Source of the DNA: Escherichia phage vB_EfeM_pEP20
Length of the DNA stretch: 64,000 nucleotides
Strand: one strand, 5' to 3'
Sequence record: OQ743992
Positions 48,081-54,927 of the stretch are shown here, in pieces; positions within the stretch are counted from its first letter, which is position 1; each line of letters starts with the position of its first letter. The notes below the pieces were generated by a model that saw only the letters and a list, made by a program, of their open reading frames with translations, did not search any database and had not been told where the DNA came from. The position numbers were made by a program, and so were the translations under genes.

Positions 48081-48156
48081 TGGAGAATCCGAAGGGACTC
48101 GAACCCTTATAAACCTGTTTTGCAGACAGGCACATAGCCATTTCTGTCACGGATTC
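48081..48156 (-). tRNA. tRNA-Cys (anticodon GCA)
   Basis: Hand-folded: perfect 7-bp acceptor, anticodon loop CTGCAAA, T-arm AAGGG-TTCGAGT-CCCTT, discriminator U, CCA encoded. Confidence 0.75.
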
Positions 48157-48160
48157 AAAT

Positions 48161-48253
48161 TGGAGGAAGATACCAGACTTGAACTGATACACCGATTTCT
48201 CAGCTACTGGCAGTTTAGCAAACTGCTCCCTTACCTTTTAGGGTTAATCTTCC
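48161..48253 (-). tRNA. tRNA-Ser (anticodon GCT), class II
   Basis: Perfect acceptor GGAAGAT/ATCTTCC, anticodon loop TTGCTAA, about 20-nt variable arm, T-loop TTCAAGT. Confidence 0.75.
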
Positions 48254-48254
48254 A

Positions 48255-48989
48255 TTATTTCTGTAATGCGTTCTTCATTTCTGGTGTTGCAATAGTGTCA
48301 ATTACACCAGTTTTACAAGCATCATCAAACCAGTCTGGTAAGATACCTGCTAAGAACCCATTGATATTCGTTTTAAGGTACTCTGCAATAAGGGCAGCTT
48401 CTTCTTCAATCATCTGCACAACTTCATCTGCATAAGCTGTAATCTTTGAGATACCTTCATTAATCTTGCTAACAGCTTGGTTAGCTAAATCAGAAATAGT
48501 ATCAAGACCTTTATCAATAGCATCTTGTAAGTCACTTAATACATCGTTAACACCGTCTAGTGCACTGTTAATTGTGTCAATAGCTTTTTGACCATATTCT
48601 GTAGCAACACCCATAATACCACTAAATGGTGTACAACCAACTTGCTCTCCTGCTGCACCCATAACATTGGAATATCCTTTTGCTACCTGCATACGTGATG
48701 AAAACTCATCAATGGACTTTTGACCGTAATCTGTCAGTGTCTTAGTGGTTGATGTAGTGCTTGTCAGACTCGTTGTAAAGCTGTTAAGCAGAACTGTTGT
48801 AAGTCCAGCGGCAACAAGTTTATCCTTTATTGTAGGGTCTGTTACAGAGCTAATAGAGCTTACAAGTGATGTAGAGGCAGCTACGGTTCCACCGAGAACT
48901 GCTGCACCAGTAATAAGGGGATTAGAAAACCCTCTACCGGTTTTTAAGAGACCAAAAATCTCCTTACCTTGTTCTGTCATCTCTTTCAT
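48255..48989 (-). CDS. hypothetical protein with hydrophobic segment and coiled-coil region, embedded in the tRNA array
   Basis: Start taken at ATG 48989 (MKEMTEQ...) behind AAAGGTG; the longer track start would overlap a tRNA-like gene. Confidence 0.45.
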   Translation of the reverse strand: MKEMTEQGKEIFGLLKTGRGFSNPLITGAAVLGGTVAASTSLVSSISSVTDPTIKDKLVAAGLTTVLLNSFTTSLTSTTSTTKTLTDYGQKSIDEFSSRMQVAKGYSNVMGAAGEQVGCTPFSGIMGVATEYGQKAIDTINSALDGVNDVLSDLQDAIDKGLDTISDLANQAVSKINEGISKITAYADEVVQMIEEEAALIAEYLKTNINGFLAGILPDWFDDACKTGVIDTIATPEMKNALQK

Positions 48990-49005
48990 TAAGCACCTTT
49001 GAAAT

Positions 49006-49080
49006 TGGTAGTTCAGTGGGATTTGAACCCTCTTCTCATGTTTTTCAGACACGCGCTTTAACCATATAAGCTACTTGGAC
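49006..49080 (-). tRNA. tRNA-like gene with Phe-type anticodon arm (GAA); acceptor stem does not pair, possible pseudo-tRNA
   Basis: Good D-arm (GCTT/AAGC) and anticodon arm (loop CTGAAAA), T-loop TTCAAAT, but 5' GTCCAAG cannot pair with 3' TGAACTA. Confidence 0.35.
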
Positions 49081-49087
49081 TATAAAT

Positions 49088-49163
49088 TGGGGTGACCTAC
49101 GGGATTTGAACCCGTATAGACCATGTTCACAGCATGGGTCATTACCATTTATGATAAGGCCAC
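49088..49163 (-). tRNA. tRNA-His (anticodon GTG)
   Basis: Acceptor GTGGCCT/AGGTCAC, D-stem TCAT/ATGA, anticodon loop CTGTGAA, T-arm ACGGG-TTCAAAT-CCCGT. Confidence 0.7.
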
Positions 49164-49194
49164 ATTTAAGGACTCTCGTAAGAATCCTTAGAAG

Positions 49195-49270
49195 TGGCAG
49201 CGGCATAAGGATTTGAACCTTAATAAGACAGCTTCAGAGACTGCTGCATTGCCAGTTATGCTATACCGCT
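49195..49270 (-). tRNA. tRNA-Gln (anticodon CTG)
   Basis: Acceptor AGCGGTA/TGCCGCT, D-stem GCAT/ATGC, anticodon loop CTCTGAA. Confidence 0.6.
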
Positions 49271-49275
49271 AAATT

Positions 49276-49354
49276 TGGTACTCCATATCGGATTCGAACC
49301 GATACATAACACAGATTTTAAGTCTGGCCTCTCTGCCAATTGGAGTAATGGAGC
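49276..49354 (-). tRNA. tRNA with Leu-type anticodon TAA but short variable arm (atypical)
   Basis: Acceptor GCTCCAT/ATGGAGT, perfect T-arm ATCGG-TTCGAAT-CCGAT, Leu-like D-loop AATTGGCAGAG, anticodon loop CTTAAAA, discriminator A, variable region only about 7 nt. Confidence 0.5.
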
Positions 49355-49356
49355 AT

Positions 49357-49432
49357 TGGCGGGGGATGCTGGAATTGAACCAGCTTCTTCGATTTCAAAG
49401 ACCGAGGTTTTAACCTTGTAAACTAATCCCCT
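49357..49432 (-). tRNA. tRNA-Gln (anticodon TTG)
   Basis: D-stem GTTT/AAAC, anticodon arm TCGGT-CTTTGAA-ATCGA, T-arm GCTGG-TTCAATT-CCAGC; first acceptor pair mismatched. Confidence 0.6.
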
Positions 49433-49440
49433 TTAAATCT

Positions 49441-49998
49441 TTACTTTCTTAGTGGATGAATAAAGAATGCCAACATAACTCTTTCCCTTGAGAATGCTCT
49501 TTCTTCTGGGACAACACTTTTTAGTTTCCATCCAATATAAATTCTCCAGTAAAACTGTTTACCAAAGACTTTAATTGATGGGATAAAAGCGAATAATCCC
49601 CAAGCATTACTGTTCCACATTAGGAGATAACCAGTCTGATTATCTTCAGGGTCAGAACTTACGTTGATATTACCTTTCCACTTAGTAACATCTTTTACAT
49701 CTCTTCCTAATACATGGTAAGAGAAGTTATAAGCTTTGTTTCTCCAGAGCCATCCAACTCTCTGCATATAAACACCAAGCTTACCAATCTTTCTAATCTT
49801 AGCCCATCTCTCAACGTGGCCTTTGTCACCATCAATCGGGTTGTCATAGGTCTCCATCCATCTGAATCCAAAAGGTAGATGCCCTTTCTTCTCGCTGTAG
49901 AATGGAACCACAAATGGTGCTAAGATTACTGCTAAGATTGCTGCAAATGGTTCTAGCAAAGCTAGGAAAATCCATGAAGCATATTTTAAATATCTCAT
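49441..49998 (-). CDS. hypothetical membrane protein (185 aa) inside tRNA array
   Basis: N-terminal hydrophobic helices (IFLALLEPFAAILAVILAPFVVPF). Confidence 0.45.
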   Translation of the reverse strand: MRYLKYASWIFLALLEPFAAILAVILAPFVVPFYSEKKGHLPFGFRWMETYDNPIDGDKGHVERWAKIRKIGKLGVYMQRVGWLWRNKAYNFSYHVLGRDVKDVTKWKGNINVSSDPEDNQTGYLLMWNSNAWGLFAFIPSIKVFGKQFYWRIYIGWKLKSVVPEERAFSRERVMLAFFIHPLRK

Positions 49999-50237
49999 CG
50001 TCTAATCCTTGTAAGGAGATAAGTGTTATTATTTGTTTCTGAGTTTTCTGGTAACATTGTCTCAAAATTGACACTTTTAAGTTGTCTTCCACCAAAGTAA
50101 TGACCAATAAATTTTTCTACTCTTATTGGGTCGCATTCCCAGCCGACTTTCAAGAAAATGTGGGTATCTATAGTGGGAACCCTTACAAACTCAACACTAT
50201 TGGAATTTTCATGTTCAACGACTATTAATGTTTGCAT
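49995..50237 (-). CDS. hypothetical protein (80 aa) inside tRNA array
   Basis: Track ORF with overlap to downstream gene. Confidence 0.4.
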   Translation of the reverse strand: MQTLIVVEHENSNSVEFVRVPTIDTHIFLKVGWECDPIRVEKFIGHYFGGRQLKSVNFETMLPENSETNNNTYLLTRIRR

Positions 50238-50245
50238 AAATCCCT

Positions 50246-50321
50246 CTTACTTAATTGGCGCAGGATAAGGGATTCGAACCCCTATTAACAGCTTCGTAGA
50301 CTGTTGCTCTATCCATTTGAA
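50246..50321 (-). tRNA. tRNA-Arg (anticodon ACG)
   Basis: Perfect acceptor GCAGGAT/ATCCTGC, anticodon loop CTACGAA, T-loop TTCGAAT. Confidence 0.7.
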
Positions 50322-50326
50322 CTAAT

Positions 50327-50404
50327 CCTGCAAAATTGGTGTTCCAAGACGGATTCGAACCGTCACTAGTACAAGGTTTGAGCTTGCATCCTCTGCCAAT
50401 TGGG
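50327..50404 (-). tRNA. tRNA with Leu-type anticodon CAA but short variable arm (atypical)
   Basis: Acceptor GTTCCAG/TTGGAAC, Leu-like D-loop AATTGGCAGAG, anticodon arm GCAAG-CTCAAAC-CTTGT, perfect T-arm GACGG-TTCGAAT-CCGTC, discriminator A, 6-nt variable region. Confidence 0.5.
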
Positions 50405-50405
50405 A

Positions 50406-50480
50406 TACTGGAACATGGTACTCACTAAAGGACTTGAACCTTTTTCTTCATCTTGTAAGGGTGATGTTTTACCATATAAA
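50406..50480 (-). tRNA. tRNA-Val (anticodon TAC)
   Basis: Acceptor ACTCGCT/AGTGAGT, D-stem GTTT/AAAC, anticodon loop CTTACAA, T-arm AAAGG-TTCAAGT-CCTTT. Confidence 0.65.
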
Positions 50481-50577
50481 CTAAGCGAGTGTGAAAAGAG
50501 GTCTGAAGTTGTGCCGCTAACTCAACTCCGTGGAATTTGTTACGGTCTTCAGTTGACTCAAAGCGGTCTTTCACTTG

Positions 50578-50653
50578 ACCTCTAAATTGGTGCTCCCACA
50601 AGGATTCGAACCCTGATAAGTTGCTTACAAGGCAACCGTAATAGCCAATTATA
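50578..50653 (-). tRNA. tRNA-Thr (anticodon TGT)
   Basis: Acceptor GCTCCTA/TGGGAGC, anticodon arm GTTGC-CTTGTAA-GCAAC, T-loop TTCGAAT. Confidence 0.65.
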
Positions 50654-50660
50654 CGATAGG

Positions 50661-50735
50661 AGCATTAATTTGGAGCATCCAGAGGGAATCGAACCCTCAA
50701 CCTCAGTTTGGAAGACTGTAATTTTCCCGTTTAAA
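50661..50735 (-). tRNA. tRNA-Gly (anticodon TCC)
   Basis: Perfect acceptor GCATCCA/TGGATGC, anticodon loop CTTCCAA, T-arm GAGGG-TTCGATT-CCCTC. Confidence 0.7.
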
Positions 50736-50741
50736 CTATGG

Positions 50742-50817
50742 ATGCACTAATTGGTGGAGTCACTGAGAATTGAACTCAGTTCCCAAGTTTGCAAAACTCG
50801 AATTTTAACCATATAAA
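50742..50817 (-). tRNA. tRNA-Ala (anticodon TGC)
   Basis: Acceptor GGGGTCA/TGACTCC with the G3-U70 pair, anticodon loop TTTGCAA, T-arm CTGAG-TTCAATT-CTCAG. Confidence 0.75.
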
Positions 50818-50824
50818 CTATGAC

Positions 50825-50900
50825 CCCCATTGTTTGGTACAGGTGGATGGAATTGAACCCATCGTCTTACTGATTAAGAGTCAGCCGCATAACCATTTTG
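50825..50900 (-). tRNA. tRNA-Lys (anticodon CTT)
   Basis: Acceptor GCAGGTG/CACCTGT, anticodon arm GCTGA-CTCTTAA-TCAGT, T-stem GATGG/CCATC. Confidence 0.6.
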
Positions 50901-50907
50901 CTACACC

Positions 50908-50984
50908 TGCATTAATTTGGTACACCTAGAGAGATTCGAACTCACACTGAGCAGATTCTAAGTCTGCTGCCTCTACCAGTTGGG
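50908..50984 (-). tRNA. tRNA with Leu-type anticodon TAG but short variable arm (atypical)
   Basis: Acceptor GCACCTA/TAGGTGT, Leu-like D-loop CAACTGGTAGAG, perfect anticodon arm GCAGA-CTTAGAA-TCTGC, T-loop TTCGAAT, discriminator A, 5-nt variable region. Confidence 0.5.
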
Positions 50985-51249
50985 CTATAGGTGCATTAAA
51001 TCTTTTTAGAGAACTTCTAAGAACCTAAGCAACAAGGTTCCACAACAAGCTGTAATAACCTTAGAAGCCCTCTAAAAAGACCTAAATAGGTCTTTGCATA
51101 GTCTTGTTTAATCCGGTGACTAGAACCTTTGGAGAGCTTGATATTATCTCTTCTCCGTGACACCTACTAGGTGCTTTATCAGTGTGTACGACAATACACG
51201 AGGGATAAACCGAAAATGCGAGCAAGCATGGACGGTATAAATCTTATTA

Positions 51250-51339
51250 GGCGGTAAGTAAAGGAGTCGAACCCTCACCGTATCTCTACAGTGGCAACTG
51301 TTTTCAAGACAGTTTGGCTACCATTAGCCGCTACCTACC
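51250..51339 (-). tRNA. tRNA-Ser (anticodon TGA), class II
   Basis: Acceptor GGTAGGT/ACTTACC, perfect anticodon arm ACTGT-CTTGAAA-ACAGT, 20-nt variable arm, T-loop TTCGACT; CCA not fully encoded. Confidence 0.65.
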
Positions 51340-51352
51340 CCTAATAAGACTT

Positions 51353-51435
51353 TGGCATGGGACGGAGGAGTTGAACCACTTTGAAACGGTTTTGGAGGCC
51401 GTTGCTCATGCCTTAGAGTCTTAACATCGTCCCAT
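51353..51435 (-). tRNA. tRNA-like gene with Trp-type anticodon loop (CCA) and expanded 5' D region (atypical)
   Basis: Perfect 7-bp acceptor ATGGGAC/GTCCCAT with discriminator G and CCA; loop CTCCAAA on stem ACGG/CCGT; about 8 extra nt before the D-arm and a weak T-stem. Confidence 0.4.
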
Positions 51436-51587
51436 ACTTTAATTCGAAGCTTACCGTATTTTCGCAACACTGTAAAGCCCCTTCTCAGATTATTTACATG
51501 TTCTGGAAAACATGAGATACAGACCACCTCCTTACACGGAGACCCGATAAGGTCGTCTAAGCAATCTGCTAACTATTTGGCACACCC

Positions 51588-51664
51588 TACAGGATTCGAA
51601 CCTGTAACTAACGATTTAGAAGACCGTTGCTCTATCCAATTGAACTAAGGGTGCATTAATCTTT
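51588..51664 (-). tRNA. tRNA-Arg (anticodon TCT)
   Basis: Acceptor GCACCCT/AGGGTGT, D-stem GTTC/GAGC, anticodon arm ACGGT-CTTCTAA-ATCGT, T-arm ACAGG-TTCGAAT-CCTGT. Confidence 0.7.
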
Positions 51665-51991
51665 AAAGACTCTCTTAGAAAGCCCTTAAAGATGCCCACC
51701 TTATTAATCATACCGTGGGCTAGTACGCCAAATTCTTTGATGAGGGATTGGAAGACCTCACTGGTGTTTAGCCTATCAAGCTACTGCCAGAAAAACATTG
51801 TCGTTTGCATTTATTTTAAATTTGCAAAATAGACGCTACGCAACGAAAACTATTCAGAATATGTACAACAAATTTCCCCACATTGTGTTACGTCTAACGC
51901 TCATGTATTGGTGTTTGAATTATACATATTATGAATCATTTTTAGTTACTATAAAGCGGTCACATCTCAATGTCAACAACTTTATTGAAAT

Positions 51992-52067
51992 TGGTGCTGG
52001 TAGGTGGAATCGAACCACCGATATTCCCTTATCAGGGGAGTGTTATAACCTTCTTAACTATACCAGC
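51992..52067 (-). tRNA. tRNA-Ile (anticodon GAT)
   Basis: Perfect acceptor GCTGGTA/TACCAGC, D-stem GTTA/TAAC, anticodon loop CTGATAA, T-arm GGTGG-TTCGATT-CCACC. Confidence 0.7.
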
Positions 52068-52068
52068 T

Positions 52069-52145
52069 TGGAGGTTCAGATGGGAATCGAACCCACATTC
52101 ATAGGGCTTATGAAACCCCTGCATTACCTTATCTGCGACTGAACC
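52069..52145 (-). tRNA. tRNA-Met (anticodon CAT)
   Basis: Acceptor GGTTCAG/CTGAACC, anticodon arm with three consecutive G-C pairs and loop TTCATAA, T-arm GTGGG-TTCGATT-CCCAT. Confidence 0.65.
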
Positions 52146-52149
52146 ATAT

Positions 52150-52225
52150 TGGTAGAAGTAGAGGGATTCGAACCCATCGCCTGTCAGATTAAAAGTCTGC
52201 CGCATCACCATTCTGCTACACTTCC
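52150..52225 (-). tRNA. tRNA-Lys (anticodon TTT)
   Basis: Acceptor GGAAGTG/TACTTCT (two G-U pairs), anticodon loop CTTTTAA, T-loop TTCGAAT with a weak stem. Confidence 0.55.
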
Positions 52226-52229
52226 ATTA

Positions 52230-52373
52230 AATTATCTTTGTAGATAAGCTACCCAGACTTGCTTAAGGTCTGTAGCGATGTGCCTTTTTGGGTTTAAATC
52301 TAGAATTTACCCTTTCACCCTTTGTGGTCGCATACTCACAGGTAAGCTTAATAACTTATCTACAAAGATAATT
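52230..52373. repeat. 19-bp perfect inverted repeat (AATTATCTTTGTAGATAAG) enclosing about 106 bp
   Basis: Arms at 52230-52248 and 52355-52373 are exact reverse complements; the enclosed sequence holds hairpin CCCAGAC-TTGCTTAAG-GTCTG. Confidence 0.6.
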
Positions 52374-52374
52374 A

Positions 52375-52506
52375 CCAGACCGTTGTTTATCATCTTAAGT
52401 GCTACCATTACACCAACTCGACATCTGCCGAGTGAAGGAATCGAACCTTCGCCTTTTCTTTACCGGAGAAATAGATTGTTTAAAGTTTGCTGTAAACGGT
52501 CTTCTG
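52375..52506 (-). ncRNA. candidate Y-RNA-like ncRNA U1 with embedded tRNA-like module (YrlA-like architecture)
   Basis: Minus-sense 5' CAGAAGACCGUUUACAGCAAAC ... ACGGUCUGG 3' with termini pairing (AGACCGU/ACGGUCU); interior has hairpin UUUCU-CCGGUAA-AGAAA, T-arm GAAGG-UUCGAUU-CCUUC, closed acceptor-like hairpin ACUCGGC-AGAU-GUCGAGU, D-arm GUG-UAAUGGUAG-CAC. Confidence 0.5.
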
Positions 52507-52519
52507 TAAATTTGTTGAG

Positions 52520-52604
52520 CCAGACCAAGTTTTAAATTTTTCAAAATTAAATTGGCTTGAAATTTTAAGTAACTTGCTGAATTTGGTCTTCTGCTCCTTT
52601 AAAG
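52520..52604 (-). ncRNA. candidate Y-RNA-like ncRNA U2
   Basis: Minus-sense 5' CAGAAGACCAAAUUCAGCAAG ... UUGGUCUGG 3'; terminal stem AGACCAA/UUGGUCU covaries with U1/U3. Confidence 0.45.
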
Positions 52605-52690
52605 AATACTCGTAAGAACTCTTTAAGGGAGGGGCTAAATAGCCCTCTCAAACATCATTTTGAAATACTTATTATAATTTGGCGGTTACG

Positions 52691-52768
52691 AAGGGATTCG
52701 AACCCTCATCATCTCCCGTGACAGGGGAGTATTTTAACCAGATTAAACTACATAACCTTCATTTGGTG
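52691..52768 (-). tRNA. tRNA-Asp (anticodon GTC)
   Basis: Acceptor GGTTATG/CGTAACC, perfect anticodon arm CTCCC-CTGTCAC-GGGAG, T-loop TTCGAAT. Confidence 0.7.
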
Positions 52769-52774
52769 TGCCGT

Positions 52775-52862
52775 GTAGGAGTCGAACCTACCGAGTCTTA
52801 ATGACAAGGGATTTACAGTCCCCACCGCTACCATCTACGGGATAACGACACATTTAAATTTG
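52775..52862 (-). tRNA. tRNA-Tyr (anticodon GTA), class II
   Basis: Acceptor GTGTCGT/ACGGCAC, anticodon loop CTGTAAA, long variable arm, T-arm GTAGG-TTCGACT-CCTAC. Confidence 0.65.
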
Positions 52863-52871
52863 GCGGTTAGT

Positions 52872-52948
52872 CAGGGATTCGAACCCTGTGCCATTCGCTT
52901 AACAGGCGACCGCACATACCTTATGTGCTTCCTAACCTTAATACATTG
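52872..52948 (-). tRNA. tRNA-Asn (anticodon GTT)
   Basis: D-stem GCAC/GTGC, anticodon loop CTGTTAA, T-arm CAGGG-TTCGAAT-CCCTG; last acceptor pair mismatched. Confidence 0.65.
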
Positions 52949-52959
52949 CCAGACCGTGT

Positions 52960-53020
52960 TTTTTCTTTTATCCACAAAAAAGTAGTTTGTTGCTGAATAC
53001 GGTCTTCTGCAAAATTGGAG
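52960..53020 (-). ncRNA. candidate Y-RNA-like ncRNA U3
   Basis: Minus-sense 5' CAGAAGACCGUAUUCAGCAAC ... CACGGUCUGG 3'; internal hairpin CUUUUUU-GUGGAU-AAAAGA. Confidence 0.45.
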
Positions 53021-53026
53021 GCGGGT

Positions 53027-53103
53027 GCAGGAGTCGAACCTGCCGATACCATGCTAATGAGACATGTGAGACGCCCTTTCTCTATACCCGCAATTCTTAA
53101 TGA
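53027..53103 (-). tRNA. tRNA with anticodon CAT (second Met, or Ile2 if lysidine-modified)
   Basis: Anticodon arm CATGT-CTCATTA-GCATG, T-arm GCAGG-TTCGACT-CCTGC; first acceptor pair mismatched. Confidence 0.6.
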
Positions 53104-53114
53104 CCAGACCAAAT

Positions 53115-53187
53115 CTCTTCTTTGTCCGATTTCGTGTCAGATGAATAAGCTTAAGTTTGCTGTAATTGGTCTTCTGTCAAAACTGGC
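53115..53187 (-). ncRNA. candidate Y-RNA-like ncRNA U4
   Basis: Minus-sense 5' CAGAAGACCAAUUACAGCAAAC ... UUGGUCUGG 3'; same conserved 5' core and covarying terminal stem as U2. Confidence 0.45.
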
Positions 53188-53194
53188 GTTCCAG

Positions 53195-53272
53195 AAGGGA
53201 TTTGAACCCTCAAATATCCACTTTGAAAGAGTGGTGACTTTACCATTTTGTCTACTGGAACATTAATTTGGT
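53195..53272 (-). tRNA. tRNA-Glu (anticodon TTC)
   Basis: Perfect acceptor GTTCCAG/CTGGAAC, perfect anticodon arm CCACT-CTTTCAA-AGTGG, T-loop TTCAAAT. Confidence 0.7.
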
Positions 53273-53279
53273 CTCTGTT

Positions 53280-53356
53280 GGAGGACTTGAACCTCCGGCC
53301 TTACCGCCCCAAACGGAACGCTCTACCAAGCTGAGCTAAACAGAGATAAACTTTTC
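53280..53356 (-). tRNA. tRNA-Pro (anticodon TGG)
   Basis: Perfect acceptor CTCTGTT/AACAGAG, D-stem GCTC/GAGC, anticodon loop TTTGGGG, T-arm GGAGG-TTCAAGT-CCTCC. Confidence 0.7.
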
Positions 53357-53475
53357 AAACTCTATGTAACCACTTTAACATTATTTTTTAGTGGTTGTCA
53401 AGAACTTTTTTTAAAATATTTTTCAGTATCTTAGAAAAGCTCTCATTTCGTTTCTATGTAGAACATATTAAAGGG

Positions 53476-53501
53476 TATTAAACACATTGTCAATACCCTT
53501 T
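53476..53501 (-). terminator. hairpin downstream of the Ro60-like gene (terminator or promoter-overlapping operator)
   Basis: Minus-sense GGGTATT-GACAATGTGTTT-AATACCC followed by TTTAATAT; the same stretch contains TTGACA, so it may be a promoter for the tRNA array instead. Confidence 0.35.
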
Positions 53502-53511
53502 TTAAAACTTT

Positions 53512-54927
53512 TTACCAGATGTAACGGTCAATCATTACTGCTTTGAGCATTACGCTGATTGGGTCAAACTTCTCACCACCGAGCAGAGCTTTTAAAGTGG
53601 CTGGAGAGAACCCTGATACCATTGCTACACCGTTATCCTTAACAGACACTTCGCAAGTACCATTACGGTTTGCTAAGTACCAGAATACCAGTTGTGGCAT
53701 TTCGTATCCAGCTTTTTTGTACTTACTACGAATTGCTTCAAAGTTTGTACGACCATTTGCACCATCAACCTGATTGAACTCCATATCAGAGAAGATGATA
53801 AGCTTACTTGGCATATCTTTCTGAGTCAAGTTGTTTCTCTTACCTGTCTCAAGAATACGGTCAAAAGCTGCTTGTAAGTTAGTTGAGCCATATTCAACAT
53901 GACGCATCACCTGACGATGACGGTTTTTCAAATCACCACTCAGTTCGATGAAATGAGGGTTTGTTGAATAAACCATTAACTCATTCTTAAAGCAACCCGT
54001 ATTGCGTTCTGCTACATACAAGGCAAGGGATACACCAATATCAAGGGCAGTGATTGAACCAAGATTCACCCAAGACATTGAGCTTGAAACATCAGTCATA
54101 CACAGGATGTTCTCACCTTCTGCCATCCAGTTTGGTAGTGCTTTCCACTGCTCATTAGCCACATCTGCATTACCATACTTAATAGATTTAATCACATCGT
54201 ATGGGTAAACAGCACCAGCGTTAATCTTAACCTCACCCTTTGAGAGTGACTCGATGTAAGCTTTGTAACGTTCCCCATCTTTACGGTTAAAGAGTTTTTG
54301 GTAACGTGCAGTAGCGAGTGAAGGAATCTTGCTGTAGTCAATCTTACCAAACTCATTAGCAGAGATTTTTTGCTCAACCGTATCAGACAGTGCAGATAAC
54401 AGTGTGCGATACTCCTTCTCACTTAAGTTTGCAAACTTACAGAAACGTTTTACAAACTGTTTGTGGCGTGGTTTTACTCGTGGTAACCACTTAGCCGCTA
54501 AACCTGCTGTTGCAGGGTCTAGTAATGCTGCTTCTAAATGTTTGAAGGCATCTGTCTCAAAACGAGTGCCTACGAAGATTTTGAAGTCATCAAAACGACC
54601 AAGTTCTGCAATCTTATCCATAATGCGAAGAACCTGTGTAGGTTCTAAAACTTTATCTTCAATCGCTTGAAGTAAAACAGTTCGGAAAGCTTTACGCTCA
54701 CCCATACCTTCTCGTACATCTCGCATATGCAGTAAAATACGAACTGCAACATCAACATCCTCACGCAAAGCTTTGTAGAACAGGTCTGGTAAGATTTCTA
54801 CATTGCTACGGCTTGAGCCAGCGGCTTTGTAAAAGTCTACCAGAGCAGACATTGATGAAGTATGGTTTACAGCACCATTTTCAGTTCGACCTGCATGAAG
54901 GTGCGCATGTTTAAATAACTCGCTCAT
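53512..54927 (-). CDS. Ro60-like protein (TROVE-like helical N-terminal region + von Willebrand A domain with MIDAS motif)
   Basis: 471 aa; helical N-terminal 260 aa, then DVSSSM MIDAS motif and a C-terminal region that aligns from memory with the Ro60 vWA domain (DVSASM...LGSI, GSTN vs GGTD, IFSDME vs VFTDNE). Confidence 0.5.
   Translation of the reverse strand: MSELFKHAHLHAGRTENGAVNHTSSMSALVDFYKAAGSSRSNVEILPDLFYKALREDVDVAVRILLHMRDVREGMGERKAFRTVLLQAIEDKVLEPTQVLRIMDKIAELGRFDDFKIFVGTRFETDAFKHLEAALLDPATAGLAAKWLPRVKPRHKQFVKRFCKFANLSEKEYRTLLSALSDTVEQKISANEFGKIDYSKIPSLATARYQKLFNRKDGERYKAYIESLSKGEVKINAGAVYPYDVIKSIKYGNADVANEQWKALPNWMAEGENILCMTDVSSSMSWVNLGSITALDIGVSLALYVAERNTGCFKNELMVYSTNPHFIELSGDLKNRHRQVMRHVEYGSTNLQAAFDRILETGKRNNLTQKDMPSKLIIFSDMEFNQVDGANGRTNFEAIRSKYKKAGYEMPQLVFWYLANRNGTCEVSVKDNGVAMVSGFSPATLKALLGGEKFDPISVMLKAVMIDRYIW

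What the first reader, a model, noticed from the sequence alone, without database searches (positions are those of the whole stretch)
52375..52506. Element U1 contains a tRNA-like module (T-arm, closed acceptor-like hairpin, D-arm) inside the conserved terminal stem
Read on the minus sense, U1 has a canonical T-arm (GAAGG-UUCGAUU-CCUUC), then a 7-bp acceptor-like helix closed by a 4-nt loop instead of free ends (ACUCGGC-AGAU-GUCGAGU), then a D-arm with the GG-containing loop (GUG-UAAUGGUAG-CAC). An anticodon-arm-like hairpin with a non-canonical loop (CCGGUAA) lies upstream. It cannot be folded as an ordinary tRNA because no free 5' acceptor strand exists. This is the arrangement described for YrlA-type bacterial Y RNAs, where a tRNA-like domain is attached to the Ro-binding stem. 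I first read it as a circularly permuted tRNA and dropped that idea in favour of this one.
Basis: partly seen in the sequence, partly recalled or inferred. Interest (0 to 1): 0.8.

Follow-up and report, generated by a model that had tools for sequence, protein, structure and literature searches.

The report
Phage Y-like RNA with tRNA mimic
A 138-base non-coding RNA gene in the tRNA cluster of a FelixO1-type phage is built like a bacterial Y RNA: a protein-binding terminal stem that carries a tRNA look-alike whose acceptor ends are closed. It lies just downstream of a gene for a Ro60-shaped protein and belongs to a large RNA family, found across phages, that I found described nowhere.

Summary
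On the minus strand, 52509..52372 holds a terminal stem, a small hairpin, a canonical T-arm, a 7-bp acceptor-like helix closed by AGAU, and a D-arm.

The YrlA-type reading is supported in architecture.
- The gene 1 kb upstream (53512-54927, Pfam DUF2828+DUF7788) folds as Ro60; the top 11 PDB matches are all Ro60/TROVE.
- Three sibling elements share the same terminal module, AAG-stem-UUACAGCAA...stem-CUG.
- The module flanks DUF2828 genes in phages of Proteobacteria, Firmicutes, Actinobacteria and Campylobacter: 144 hits on the gene strand against 15 opposite.
- In at least 11 distant phages one member carries the same T / closed-acceptor / D core. Covariation is strong: 91% paired against about 45% in slid controls.
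- A model built only from the distant members finds U1 as the best hit in the window (44 bits, E 2e-9).

U1 is not a member of Rfam YrlA. It gives no hit, lacks the GNCGAA motif, and its partner is not a Pfam TROVE protein.

The terminal module matches the defining features of Dictyostelium Class I RNAs. I rate this a new variant of a known kind, of high interest.

The parts
52372..52509 (-). U1: the whole Y-like RNA element, from the outer helix 5' strand to the outer helix 3' strand (138 nt)
   Evidence: Sequence; fold; it is 95-99% conserved in about 200 Felixounavirus records and none annotates it as an RNA.
52487..52509 (-). 5' half of the terminal module: outer helix UUAC, internal loop AGA, inner helix AGACCGUU, then the single-stranded motif UACAGCAA
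   Evidence: Shared by all four elements in the window. The logo of 142 unique elements from 60+ loci reads AAG-stem-UUA-CAGCAA.
52372..52384 (-). 3' half of the terminal module: AACGGUCU, bulged G, outer helix GUAA. The conserved ...CUG end is here.
   Evidence: GGTCTGG occurs on the minus strand only at the four elements.
52455..52471 (-). Small hairpin UUUCU-CCGGUAA-AGAAA. It is the 'V' stem-loop in YrlA terms, or the anticodon arm of the permuted cloverleaf.
   Evidence: The loop is CUGGUAA in L011 and a 6-nt CGGUAA in L007-L009.
52434..52450 (-). T-arm GAAGG-UUCGAUU-CCUUC
   Evidence: In the 16-sequence alignment, 4 of its 5 pairs covary and 92.5% of cells are paired.
52416..52433 (-). 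Closed acceptor-like helix ACUCGGC-AGAU-GUCGAGU (7 bp, 4-nt loop, no CCA)
   Evidence: All 7 pairs show compensatory changes and 93% of cells are paired. The sequence is replaced but still pairs in L011 and L013.
52399..52413 (-). D-arm GUGU-AAUGGUA-GCAC, preceded by U8-G9 equivalents at 52415-52414
53102..53178 (-). Sibling element E1 (77 nt), between tRNA-Glu and tRNA-Met. Same terminal module, no tRNA-like core.
52946..53012 (-). Sibling element E2 (67 nt), between tRNA-Met and tRNA-Asn
   Evidence: It aligns end to end with Rfam Dicty_Class_I_RNA at 24.1 bits.
52517..52596 (-). Sibling element E3 (80 nt), ending 8 nt upstream of U1
53512..54927 (-). Gene for the presumed protein partner: 471 aa, Pfam DUF2828 + DUF7788, Ro60 fold (HEAT-repeat ring plus vWA domain with DVSSSM MIDAS motif)
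   Evidence: Relatives are annotated 'Ro-like RNA binding protein' in mycobacteriophages. The Bas63 gp130 description in 10.1101/2024.10.10.617714 fits this gene.
53372..53493 (-). Two sigma-70-like promoters between the protein gene and the first tRNA. They probably start the polycistronic tRNA/Y-like RNA transcript.
   Evidence: These are consensus matches only. No terminator-like site lies on the minus strand between them and U1.

Best explanation
U1 is a non-coding, Y-RNA-like partner of the phage's Ro60-fold protein, the DUF2828 gene at 53512-54927. It is transcribed with the tRNA array and cut out of the precursor.

Its base-paired ends, together with the adjacent single-stranded UUACAGCAA and the conserved A.G/A-U/G-C...CUG base of the stem, form the protein-binding module. 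U1 shares this module with three simpler sibling RNAs (E1-E3).

The rest of U1 is a tRNA mimic: T-arm, D-arm and a 7-bp acceptor helix whose ends are joined by a 4-nt loop. It can adopt the tRNA L-shape but cannot be charged.

By analogy with Rsr-YrlA/Yrn1-PNPase, the mimic would tether a tRNA-recognising host or phage factor to the ring protein, or act as a decoy for such a factor. This would serve the phage's contest with host RNA- or tRNA-directed defences.

The module probably arose from the junction of two tandem tRNA copies in a phage tRNA array.

Shown: the sequence anatomy, the conservation and covariation, the genomic linkage and the fold of the protein. Inferred: expression, processing, protein binding and the effector.
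For: 1. Anatomy.
3. Four elements with the same terminal module lie within 1.6 kb downstream of the gene, on its strand. None occurs elsewhere in the 64 kb.
4. The module recurs next to homologous genes in 60+ loci. There are 144 hits on the gene strand against 15 on the opposite strand. Of 142 unique elements, 124 lie within 2.5 kb of the gene. Examples are mycobacteriophage Snenia, Listeria LMSP-25, Staphylococcus 6ec and Campylobacter CP30A.
5. The stem sequence varies while pairing is kept, and CAGCAA is invariant.
6. At least 11 distant phages carry one member with the same T / closed-acceptor / D core. Across 16 such sequences, 91.4% of cells are paired against 43-49% in slid controls. 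Thirteen of 16 pairs have double changes, and 0 of 500 shuffles reach the observed score.
7. Model R1, trained without any Ounavirinae sequence, scores U1 at 44.4 bits (E 1.8e-9), the best hit in the window.
8. Rfam YrlA recognises the cores of the relatives: L031 41.4 bits, Snenia 39.3, L019 38.2.
9. The layout matches published YrlA biology. Several Y RNAs are encoded per locus, on the same strand within 4 kb of the Ro60 gene. One is tRNA-like. They are co-transcribed with tRNA.
10. Close relatives differ by 1-nt and 3-5-nt indels and by whole-helix replacement. That is incompatible with the small ORFs some records annotate here.
Against: - There are no expression, end-mapping or binding data for any member.
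- U1 itself is not detected by Rfam YrlA even at E<=10.
- The GNCGAA(N)G / GGUCCGA Ro-binding motif is absent.
- The protein does not match Pfam TROVE.
- Bas63 gp130 alone, from a plasmid or inserted into T7, counters the ppl defence. At least that activity therefore needs no phage-encoded RNA.
- The folding energy of U1 is not unusual (z -1.4).
- The 16 sequences used for covariation were partly picked by eye or by scans that required pairing. The percentage paired is therefore somewhat inflated. The R1 test on U1 is free of this bias.
Confidence: 0.72

Rival explanations
1. U1 is a genuine circularly permuted tRNA gene. The transcript would be circularised through its paired ends (for example by an RtcB-type ligase). 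RNase P and a 3' nuclease would then open it at the acceptor loop. The product would be a working tRNA-Thr(GGU), or a two-piece tRNA held together by the terminal stem.
For: - After in-silico un-permutation, ARAGORN at default settings calls a 71-nt tRNA-Thr(GGU) with a complete cloverleaf for U1 and L011, and a tRNA-Asp for L061.
- In about 7 of 17 relatives the acceptor loop begins with discriminator + CCA followed by a spacer.
- M. smegmatis YrlA, with a 7-bp acceptor stem, is cut by RNase P and receives CCA in vivo.
- The phage has tRNA-Thr(UGU) but no tRNA-Thr(GGU).
- An RtcB ligase gene lies 1.3 kb from the homologous gene in Listeria phage LMSP-25.
Against: - The U1 loop is only AGAU, with no CCA.
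- The anticodon-like loop has C33 instead of the near-universal U33, and it is a 6-nt loop in close relatives L007-L009.
- The hairpin varies in stem and loop size, or is absent, across relatives. That behaviour fits a YrlA 'V' arm, not an anticodon arm.
- The same terminal module is carried by many members with no tRNA-like interior.
- The terminal helix has a 3-nt/1-nt internal loop, not a bulge-helix-bulge splice motif.
Confidence: 0.1
2. U1 is a functionless relic: a decayed tRNA, or the fused junction of two tRNAs in a fast-evolving tRNA array. The surrounding repeats would be processing or recombination debris.
For: - The element sits inside a 26-tRNA array.
- Ordinary tRNA-tRNA junctions score up to 30.5 bits with model R1. 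A tandem tRNA-Met/tRNA-Met junction scores 41 bits. Such junctions are therefore plausible raw material.
- The sub-threshold tRNA-model hit (24.7 bits) looks like a pseudo-tRNA.
Against: - The architecture is kept, with compensatory changes, across phages whose partner proteins are only 33-47% identical, infecting different phyla.
- Within Ounavirinae the acceptor helix sequence is replaced twice and still pairs.
- The linkage is to the DUF2828 gene, not to tRNAs. Snenia carries its three elements directly downstream of the gene; its only tRNA in the locus is about 1.2 kb upstream of the gene. Staphylococcus phage 6ec also has three elements right after the gene; its only tRNA is about 1.4 kb further downstream.
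Confidence: 0.06
3. The elements act in cis. They could be binding sites through which the Ro60-like protein regulates its own mRNA or the tRNA precursor. They could instead be nuclease entry sites that guide processing of the polycistronic tRNA transcript. In either case they would not be free-standing trans-acting RNAs.
For: - In many phages the elements lie within 500 nt of the gene on the same strand: 73 of 142. They could therefore sit in its UTRs.
- In this window they lie between tRNAs with no promoter or terminator of their own.
Against: - Loci carry tandem arrays of 2-7 elements with elaborate, individually conserved interiors: tRNA mimics or 200-250-nt domains.
- In this window the elements are separated from the gene by promoters and two tRNAs.
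- The near-identical Dictyostelium Class I architecture belongs to abundant free cytoplasmic RNAs.
- Bacterial Y RNAs show the same adjacency and co-transcription with tRNA, and they are trans-acting.
Confidence: 0.1

Closest known systems
YrlA, the bacterial Y RNA with a tRNA-like domain (Rfam RF02553; Chen et al. 2014, PMC4201824)
   Same: - The order of elements is the same: protein-binding stem formed by the 5' and 3' ends, an optional V hairpin, T-arm, acceptor-like stem closed by a loop, D-arm.
- It is encoded on the same strand within a few kb of a Ro60-fold gene.
- Several Y RNAs occur per locus, and only one is tRNA-like.
- It is co-transcribed with tRNA.
- Relatives of U1 in other phages hit the YrlA model over the T/AS/D core at 26.7-41.4 bits.
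   Different: - U1 gives no YrlA hit, and no relative reaches the 69-bit cut-off.
- The GNCGAA(N)G motif is absent. It is replaced by AAG-stem-UUACAGCAA...CUG.
- The protein partner is Pfam DUF2828/DUF7788, about 13% identical to Ro60, not TROVE.
- U1 contains a complete permuted cloverleaf, including an anticodon-arm-like hairpin.
- Many relatives encode NCCA in the acceptor loop.
Dictyostelium Class I RNAs (Rfam RF01414; Aspegren 2004, Avesson 2011, Kjellin 2021 PMC7919456)
   Same: - The terminal module has the same defining features. [quoted passage not shown]
- AAG lies at the 5' base and CUG(U) at the 3' end, with that G pairing that C.
- The motif (CC)UUACAGCAA lies directly 3' of the 5' stem strand.
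- The interior is variable.
- Rfam RF01414 is the best non-tRNA hit on the short elements and coincides exactly with their ends (22.8-24.7 bits).
   Different: - All scores fall below the 41.5-bit cut-off.
- The phage elements are 50-250 nt, and U1 carries a tRNA mimic. Class I RNAs are 42-65 nt.
- Class I RNAs are eukaryotic genes with a DUSE promoter.
- The known direct binder is the RRM protein CIBP/Rnp1A.
- Whether Dictyostelium has a DUF2828 protein could not be checked, so homology is untested.
Circularly permuted tRNA genes (Cyanidioschyzon merolae type; from my own knowledge)
   Same: The 3' part of the cloverleaf precedes the 5' part, and the acceptor strands are joined by a short intervening sequence. 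In relatives that sequence starts with NCCA. Un-permutation restores a cloverleaf that ARAGORN accepts.
   Different: - The break point is at 26/27 and is occupied by a conserved protein-binding module that non-tRNA RNAs share.
- There is no bulge-helix-bulge motif.
- The anticodon loop is non-canonical and variable.
- The host is bacterial.
Deinococcus Yrn1/Yrn2, metazoan Y RNAs and Thermus phage phiLo Yrl1/Yrl2 (PMC12135203)
   Same: These are small RNAs whose paired termini bind a Ro60 ring and whose distal part recruits an effector (PNPase in RYPER). Phage versions exist and are proposed to subvert host RNA metabolism or defence.
   Different: They are recognised through the GGUCCGA/CGAA-type 5' strand motif and bind TROVE-family Ro60. 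Metazoan Y RNAs have no full T/AS/D mimic.

Membership tests
YrlA (Rfam RF02553) | Reaches the family covariance-model gathering score (69 bits) | tested here: not met
   U1 gives no hit at E<=10, even in a 161-nt search. Relatives in other phages reach 26.7-41.4 bits.
YrlA (Rfam RF02553) | tRNA-like domain in the order (V) - T-arm - closed acceptor-like stem-loop - D-arm, enclosed by a stem leading to the protein-binding end | tested here: met
   The layout is as described in PMC4201824 and as in the Rfam consensus structure shown.
YrlA (Rfam RF02553) | GNCGAA(N0-1)G motif near the 5' end (presumed Rsr contact) | tested here: not met
   The 5' region reads CAGAAGACCGUUUACAGCAAAC. It has no GNCGAA. 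The family-wide logo shows AAG-stem-UUACAGCAA instead.
YrlA (Rfam RF02553) | Encoded within about 4 kb of, and on the same strand as, a Ro60 (TROVE) orthologue | tested here: inconclusive
   A gene with the Ro60 fold lies 1.0 kb upstream on the same strand. It matches Pfam DUF2828/DUF7788, not TROVE.
YrlA (Rfam RF02553) | Bound by Rsr/Ro60 in vivo; carries psi55 and dihydrouridine made by TruB and DusA | not testable with these tools
   This needs RIP/CLIP and modification mapping.
Dictyostelium Class I RNA (Rfam RF01414) | Short stem joining the 5' and 3' ends, flanked by AAG (5') and CUGU (3'), with the G pairing the C | tested here: met
   U1 reads AAG-ACCGUU...AACGGU-CUGG. The definition is from PMC7919456. 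RNA ends are not mapped.
Dictyostelium Class I RNA (Rfam RF01414) | 11-nt motif CCUUACAGCAA next to the 5' stem strand (positions 3, 6, 9, 10, 11 invariant) | tested here: met
   U1 has GUUUACAGCAA. All five invariant positions match, as do 9 of 11 overall.
Dictyostelium Class I RNA (Rfam RF01414) | Reaches the gathering score (41.5 bits); length 42-65 nt; dictyostelid gene with a DUSE promoter | tested here: not met
   U1 scores 14.7 bits and sibling E2 24.1 bits. U1 is 138 nt and lies in a phage genome.
tRNA (Rfam RF00005 / ARAGORN) | Cloverleaf with free 5' and 3' acceptor ends, detected by tRNA finders | tested here: not met
   ARAGORN makes no call. The Rfam tRNA model gives 24.7 bits against a 29-bit cut-off, with broken acceptor pairs. 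Only after artificial un-permutation is tRNA-Thr(GGU) called.
Circularly permuted tRNA gene | 3' half upstream of 5' half, acceptor strands joined by an intervening sequence, complete cloverleaf on un-permutation | tested here: met
   for U1, L011 and L061 at default ARAGORN settings.
Circularly permuted tRNA gene | Canonical anticodon loop (U33, purine 37) and a splice or circularisation motif at the termini | tested here: not met
   The loop is CCGGUAA, with C33, and is 6 nt in L007-L009. The termini form a helix with a 3-nt/1-nt internal loop, not a bulge-helix-bulge.
Ro60 / TROVE protein (the partner gene) | HEAT-repeat ring plus C-terminal vWA domain with a MIDAS motif | tested here: met
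   The Foldseek top 11 hits are all Ro60 structures over about 520 aligned columns. D279, S281 and S283 (DVSSSM) are invariant in 40 homologues.
Ro60 / TROVE protein (the partner gene) | Sequence match to Pfam TROVE (PF05731) or to solved Ro60 chains | tested here: not met
   Pfam returns only DUF2828 and DUF7788. phmmer against PDB sequences finds nothing relevant.

The most novel reading that the evidence does not exclude
The module 'AAG - short variable stem - UUACAGCAA ... stem - CUG' is the RNA recognition element of a second, DUF2828-type branch of Ro60-like proteins. It defines a very large RNP class that I found described nowhere, present in hundreds of phage genomes across bacterial phyla.

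The Dictyostelium Class I RNAs have had no known function or wider distribution since 2004. On this reading they would be the eukaryotic members of the same class, and hence Y-RNA analogues bound by a DUF2828 protein. One candidate is the uncharacterised pull-down protein DDB_G0281243.

U1-type members would be tRNAs captured from tandem tRNA genes and wired into this module.
Probability: 0.35. Interest if true: 0.92.

Novelty: new variant of a known kind. Interest (0 to 1): 0.8.

Why it matters
- **It supplies the missing RNAs.** Relatives of this Ro60-like protein occur in 709 of 50,697 deposited phage genomes. In Bas63, the gene that appears to be the counterpart of this one is an experimentally shown anti-defence factor. 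The authors of that work could only guess that 'some tRNA genes are possibly Y RNAs'.
- **It extends Ro60/Y-RNA biology.** This branch has a different recognition motif, and in this branch tRNA mimicry arose from permuted tRNAs. Many of these still encode CCA.
- **It opens a test for an old question.** It gives a concrete entry point into the function of Dictyostelium Class I RNAs.
- **It has an annotation consequence.** These regions are currently left blank or annotated as tiny hypothetical ORFs in hundreds of phage records.

Tried and rejected
- **Rfam at gathering thresholds:** only tRNAs in the window. At E<=10 there is nothing on U1 except a sub-threshold tRNA hit and a weak Dicty Class I hit.
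- **Sequence search of the protein against PDB chains:** nothing relevant. The fold search was needed.
- **Literature.**
  - DUF2828, PF11443, IPR011205: no functional paper.
  - 'Ro-like' + phage: only genome announcements.
  - DDB_G0281243: one mention, function unknown.
  - Avesson 2011, Aspegren 2004 and the 2020 Annual Review are not held.
  - The supplementary tables of Chen 2014 are not held. I could not check its list of 22 phages. That search was seeded with TROVE-annotated proteins, so DUF2828 phages were probably outside it.
- **AFDB fold search,** meant to find a Dictyostelium DUF2828 protein: the library is unavailable.
- **Test of whether the stem-proximal base pairs are phage-specific,** as a signature of co-evolution with the protein: the difference is only weak (0.49 within loci against 0.41 between loci, confounded by register). 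I make no claim from it.
- **Protein-coding reading of the region,** covering the 85-aa antisense ORF 52278-52535 and the 33-39-aa ORFs annotated in ULIM3: rejected because of frame-breaking indels and helix replacements among close relatives.
- **Guessing the Bas63 accession:** failed, since MZ501111 is Bas51. The identity of gp130 with this gene rests on the paper's description plus taxonomy.
Full report
**What the window is.** The 454 bases around the finding are 95-99% identical to about 200 Felixounavirus genomes (FelixO1-like myoviruses of E. coli, Salmonella, Shigella and Citrobacter). No record annotates an RNA there. Some annotate 33-39-aa 'hypothetical proteins'. The finding lies on the minus strand inside a 26-gene tRNA array, 48081-53345.

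**The observation.**
- Outer helix: UUAC 52509-52506 with GUAA 52375-52372.
- Asymmetric internal loop: AGA opposite G.
- Inner helix: AGACCGUU 52502-52495 with AACGGUCU 52384-52377.
- Single-stranded motif: UACAGCAA 52494-52487.
- Hairpin: UUUCU-CCGGUAA-AGAAA 52471-52455.
- T-arm: GAAGG-UUCGAUU-CCUUC 52450-52434.
- Acceptor-like helix, 7 bp: ACUCGGC-AGAU-GUCGAGU 52433-52416.
- U-G spacer, then the D-arm GUGU-AAUGGUA-GCAC 52413-52399.

RNAfold recovers all of these helices, although the energy is not exceptional (z -1.4). ARAGORN makes no call. The Rfam tRNA model gives 24.7 bits (cut-off 29) across the hairpin, the T-arm and one acceptor strand, with broken acceptor pairs.

**Siblings and the neighbouring gene.** Three more elements on the same strand start with CAGAAGACCnn(A/U)UUaCAGCAA and end with nnGGUCUGG.
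- E1, 53178-53102.
- E2, 53012-52946.
- E3, 52596-52517.

The pattern occurs nowhere else in the 64 kb. Each folds as outer helix / AGA-G loop / inner helix, and the outer helix differs in sequence in each copy: GAC, UUGC, GAGC, UUAC. Only U1 has the tRNA-like interior.

One kilobase upstream, on the same strand, lies a 471-aa ORF (53512-54927). It matches Pfam DUF2828 and DUF7788 and nothing else. Its AlphaFold model (pLDDT 88, pTM 0.88) has Ro60/TROVE structures as its eleven best PDB matches. These include Xenopus Ro60, Deinococcus Rsr and Thermus phage phiLo Ro60. All align over the full length, at E 5e-8 to 3e-6, TM 0.5-0.66 and 12-16% identity. The vWA MIDAS residues D279, S281 and S283 are invariant in 40 homologues.

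**The family is wide.** tblastn finds the protein in 709 phage records. Among them are 95 mycobacteriophages, where it is annotated 'Ro-like RNA binding protein'. Phages of Listeria, Staphylococcus, Enterococcus, Bacillus, Campylobacter, Vibrio and Aeromonas also carry it.

I fetched 80 loci around homologues, 38-99% identical. I scanned them for a stem of at least 7 bp that ends 1-4 nt before CAGCA and closes with C(U/C/A)G.
- 144 hits fall on the gene strand and 15 on the opposite strand.
- Of 142 unique elements, 124 lie within 2.5 kb of the gene and 73 within 500 nt.
- Loci carry 1-7 elements each.
- The logo reads AAG - variable stem - (U)UA - CAGCAA ... stem - CUG.

The same arrangement appears in annotated phages.
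- Mycobacteriophage Snenia has three elements directly after the gene, followed by a terminator-like GC-rich hairpin and U-run (seen by eye).
- Listeria phage LMSP-25 has three elements before the gene.
- Staphylococcus phage 6ec has three elements after the gene.
- Campylobacter phage CP30A has two elements before the gene.

No Rfam family covers these elements at or near threshold.

**tRNA-like members elsewhere.** At least 11 distant phages carry a member of 96-135 nt with U1's layout. They are L019 (two), L026, L031 (two), L040 (two), L042, L061, L072, L073 (three), L076 and Snenia.

On a MAFFT alignment of 16 such elements, the T, acceptor and D helices are 91.4% paired, against 43-49% when the partner is slid by 1-3 columns. 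All seven acceptor pairs and four of five T-arm pairs show changes on both sides. None of 500 shuffles reaches the observed covariation score. Part of this set was chosen by eye or by scans that required pairing, so those figures lean high.

As an unbiased test I built a covariance model from 13 cores that excluded every Ounavirinae sequence.
- U1 is the model's best hit in the whole window: 52397-52456, 44.4 bits, E 1.8e-9.
- The next hits, at 30.5 bits or less, are ordinary tRNA-tRNA junctions with unpaired 'acceptor' columns.
- The two other Ounavirinae versions score 49.7 and 41.1 bits.

Within the subfamily the acceptor helix is ACUCGGC/GUCGAGU here, ACACG/CGUGU in L011 and ACCCUUC/GAAGGGU in L013, while the T and D arms stay identical.

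**Relation to YrlA.** The published description of YrlA fits the layout of this locus.
- Order of elements: 5' motif, optional V stem-loop, T, closed 'AS' stem-loop, D.
- Position: on the Ro60 strand, within 4 kb of the gene.
- Number: at least two Y RNAs per species, one of them tRNA-like.
- Transcription: together with tRNA.

The Rfam YrlA model detects the cores of several relatives: L031 at 41.4 bits, Snenia at 39.3, L019 at 38.2 and L076 at 26.7. In each case it aligns T, AS, D and the 4-bp enclosing stem but not the terminal region.

U1 itself gives no YrlA hit. No member reaches the 69-bit cut-off. The GNCGAA(N)G motif is absent and the partner protein is not a Pfam TROVE protein. U1 therefore works like YrlA, as far as sequence can say, but is not a member of that family.

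**The permuted-tRNA reading.** I opened the acceptor hairpin at its loop, removed the terminal module and its linkers, and joined the D-arm (+U26) to the small hairpin.
- ARAGORN at default settings then calls a 71-nt tRNA-Thr(GGU) with a full cloverleaf.
- L011 gives the same result, and L061 gives tRNA-Asp.
- Three others are called only at relaxed settings.

In about 7 of 17 relatives the acceptor loop begins with discriminator + CCA followed by a 4-15-nt spacer. This is seen in L013, L019 (two), L040 (two), L072 and L073c. A junction between two tandem tRNA-Met genes scores 41 bits with my model (L040 1979-2041).

The simplest origin is therefore the 3' two-thirds of one tRNA copy, the intergenic spacer and the 5' third of the next copy.

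Four points argue against a decoding function today.
- U1 has no CCA.
- Position 33 is C.
- Close relatives have a 6-nt loop.
- The hairpin is variable or missing in other members.

M. smegmatis YrlA, which also has a 7-bp acceptor stem, is cut by RNase P and receives CCA in vivo. Members with NCCA loops may be processed in the same way. U1, with its 4-nt loop, probably stays closed.

**Likely mechanism.**
- *Shown:* the anatomy, the conservation, the linkage and the protein fold.
- *Inferred:* the array is transcribed from sigma-70-like promoters at 53493-53372. The four RNAs are excised. Each binds the Ro60-like ring through the terminal module. U1's tRNA mimic then brings in, or sequesters, a tRNA-recognising factor.

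Two further observations point to RNA-damage conflicts. Of 58 loci scanned, 34 hold tRNA or tmRNA genes, always on the gene strand. An RtcB ligase gene and a band-7 protein gene lie near the homologues in LMSP-25 and Snenia.

One caution applies. gp130 alone rescues T7 from ppl, so the RNAs are not needed for every activity of the protein.

**Dictyostelium Class I RNAs.** The only non-tRNA Rfam family that repeatedly touches the short elements is RF01414, and each hit matches an element end to end.
- Sibling E2: 24.1 bits, local E 0.007, all six stem pairs formed.
- L039, L084 and L070: 22.8-24.7 bits.
- U1: 14.7 bits.

The published definition of Class I RNAs coincides with the phage logo. 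That definition has five parts.
- A start at AAG.
- A 6-bp stem of variable sequence with many compensatory changes.
- The motif CCUUACAGCAA, with five invariant positions.
- An end at CUGU, whose C pairs the 5' G.
- A variable interior.

Those RNAs were reported to be absent outside Dictyostelia. One of their four pull-down proteins, DDB_G0281243, is uncharacterised. DUF2828 occurs in plants and in mimivirus-like sequences. I could not test whether Dictyostelium has a DUF2828 protein, so this remains a lead.

**Verdict.** U1 is best described as a Y-RNA-like non-coding RNA with a permuted-tRNA mimic. It belongs to an RNA family, apparently undescribed, that accompanies DUF2828-type Ro60-like proteins in phages. 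I rate it a new variant of a known kind.

Noticed in passing
window 52231-52372 (minus strand), immediately 3' of U1: A 147-nt region folds into a very stable structure closed by a 23-bp stem (-47 kcal/mol, z -5.7, 0 of 200 shuffles). Compared with L011/L013, the closing stem keeps pairing through compensatory changes. Inside is a mini hairpin CAGAC-CUUAAGCAA-GUCUG (CAAACC-CUUUAGCAA-GGUUUG in relatives) whose loop resembles the UUACAGCAA motif. It may be a fifth, minimal binding site or a separate ncRNA. It has no Rfam hit.
   Followed up: partly
window 52946-53012 (E2); L039 5795-5844; L084 2623-2678; L070 7528-7581: The short stem+CAGCAA elements are matched end to end, below threshold (22.8-24.7 bits), by Rfam Dicty_Class_I_RNA. 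The published Class I features (AAG start, variable 6-bp stem, CCUUACAGCAA, CUGU end) equal the phage consensus.
   Followed up: partly
L013 8461-8578; L019 5377-5509 and 5751-5881; L040 7947-8065 and 8154-8288; L072 7469-7602; L073 5118-5240: In these tRNA-like relatives the loop closing the acceptor helix begins with discriminator + CCA (GCCA, CCCA, ACCA) followed by a 4-15-nt spacer. It looks as if a tRNA 3' end and an intergenic spacer were retained. Such members may be cut by RNase P, as M. smegmatis YrlA is.
   Followed up: partly
L061 8328-8428; L064 8191-8315: Two members embed a tRNA-like sequence in other topologies. L061 has the normal order (D arm, anticodon arm with CUUUUAA loop, T arm) inside the terminal stem. 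L064 starts with acceptor 3' strand + GCCA + spacer, then a whole 5'-to-T-arm tRNA, so it is permuted at the T-arm/acceptor junction.
   Followed up: no
L017 353-565 and 2595-2841; L018 864-1108; L021 7471-7721; L037 4793-5032; L044 7521-7762; L069 5657-5895; L076 5434-5674; L080 3595-3825: Some members of the stem+CAGCAA family are 200-250 nt long with large interiors unlike tRNA. L021, L037 and L044 share interior sequence blocks (for example GAAGUAUAGUAG..CCGUCGAAG, GAGAUAUAGCUGCCGAGC). This suggests further conserved effector domains.
   Followed up: no
L084 1428-1979 (Listeria phage LMSP-25): A ROOL RNA match (88.5 bits, E 1.7e-16, just under the 99.1-bit cut-off) lies among the tRNAs about 1 kb upstream of the DUF2828 gene and its three stem+CAGCAA elements.
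   Followed up: no
L084 5808-7019; L083 738-1670: Gene neighbours recall bacterial Rsr/Rtc RNA-repair loci. A 'tRNA-splicing ligase' (RtcB) lies 1.3 kb downstream of the DUF2828 gene in LMSP-25. A band-7-like membrane protein and a tRNA-Tyr lie upstream in Snenia.
   Followed up: no
L040 1979-2041: The junction between two tandem tRNA-Met genes scores 41 bits with the T/closed-acceptor/D model. That is nearly as high as genuine elements, and it illustrates how such modules could arise from tandem tRNA duplication.
   Followed up: partly
window 52598-52679 (minus strand): The 82 nt between tRNA-Asp and element E3 form two hairpins, GAGAGGGCUAUUUAGCCCCUC and a 9-bp stem (z -2.8, 0 of 200 shuffles). 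Their role is unknown.
   Followed up: no
58 related loci: In 34 of 58 loci around DUF2828 genes, tRNA or tmRNA genes lie within about 6 kb, always on the gene's strand. Seven loci (L049, L054, L066, L068, L070, L074, L078) have a phage tmRNA a few kb from the gene.
   Followed up: partly
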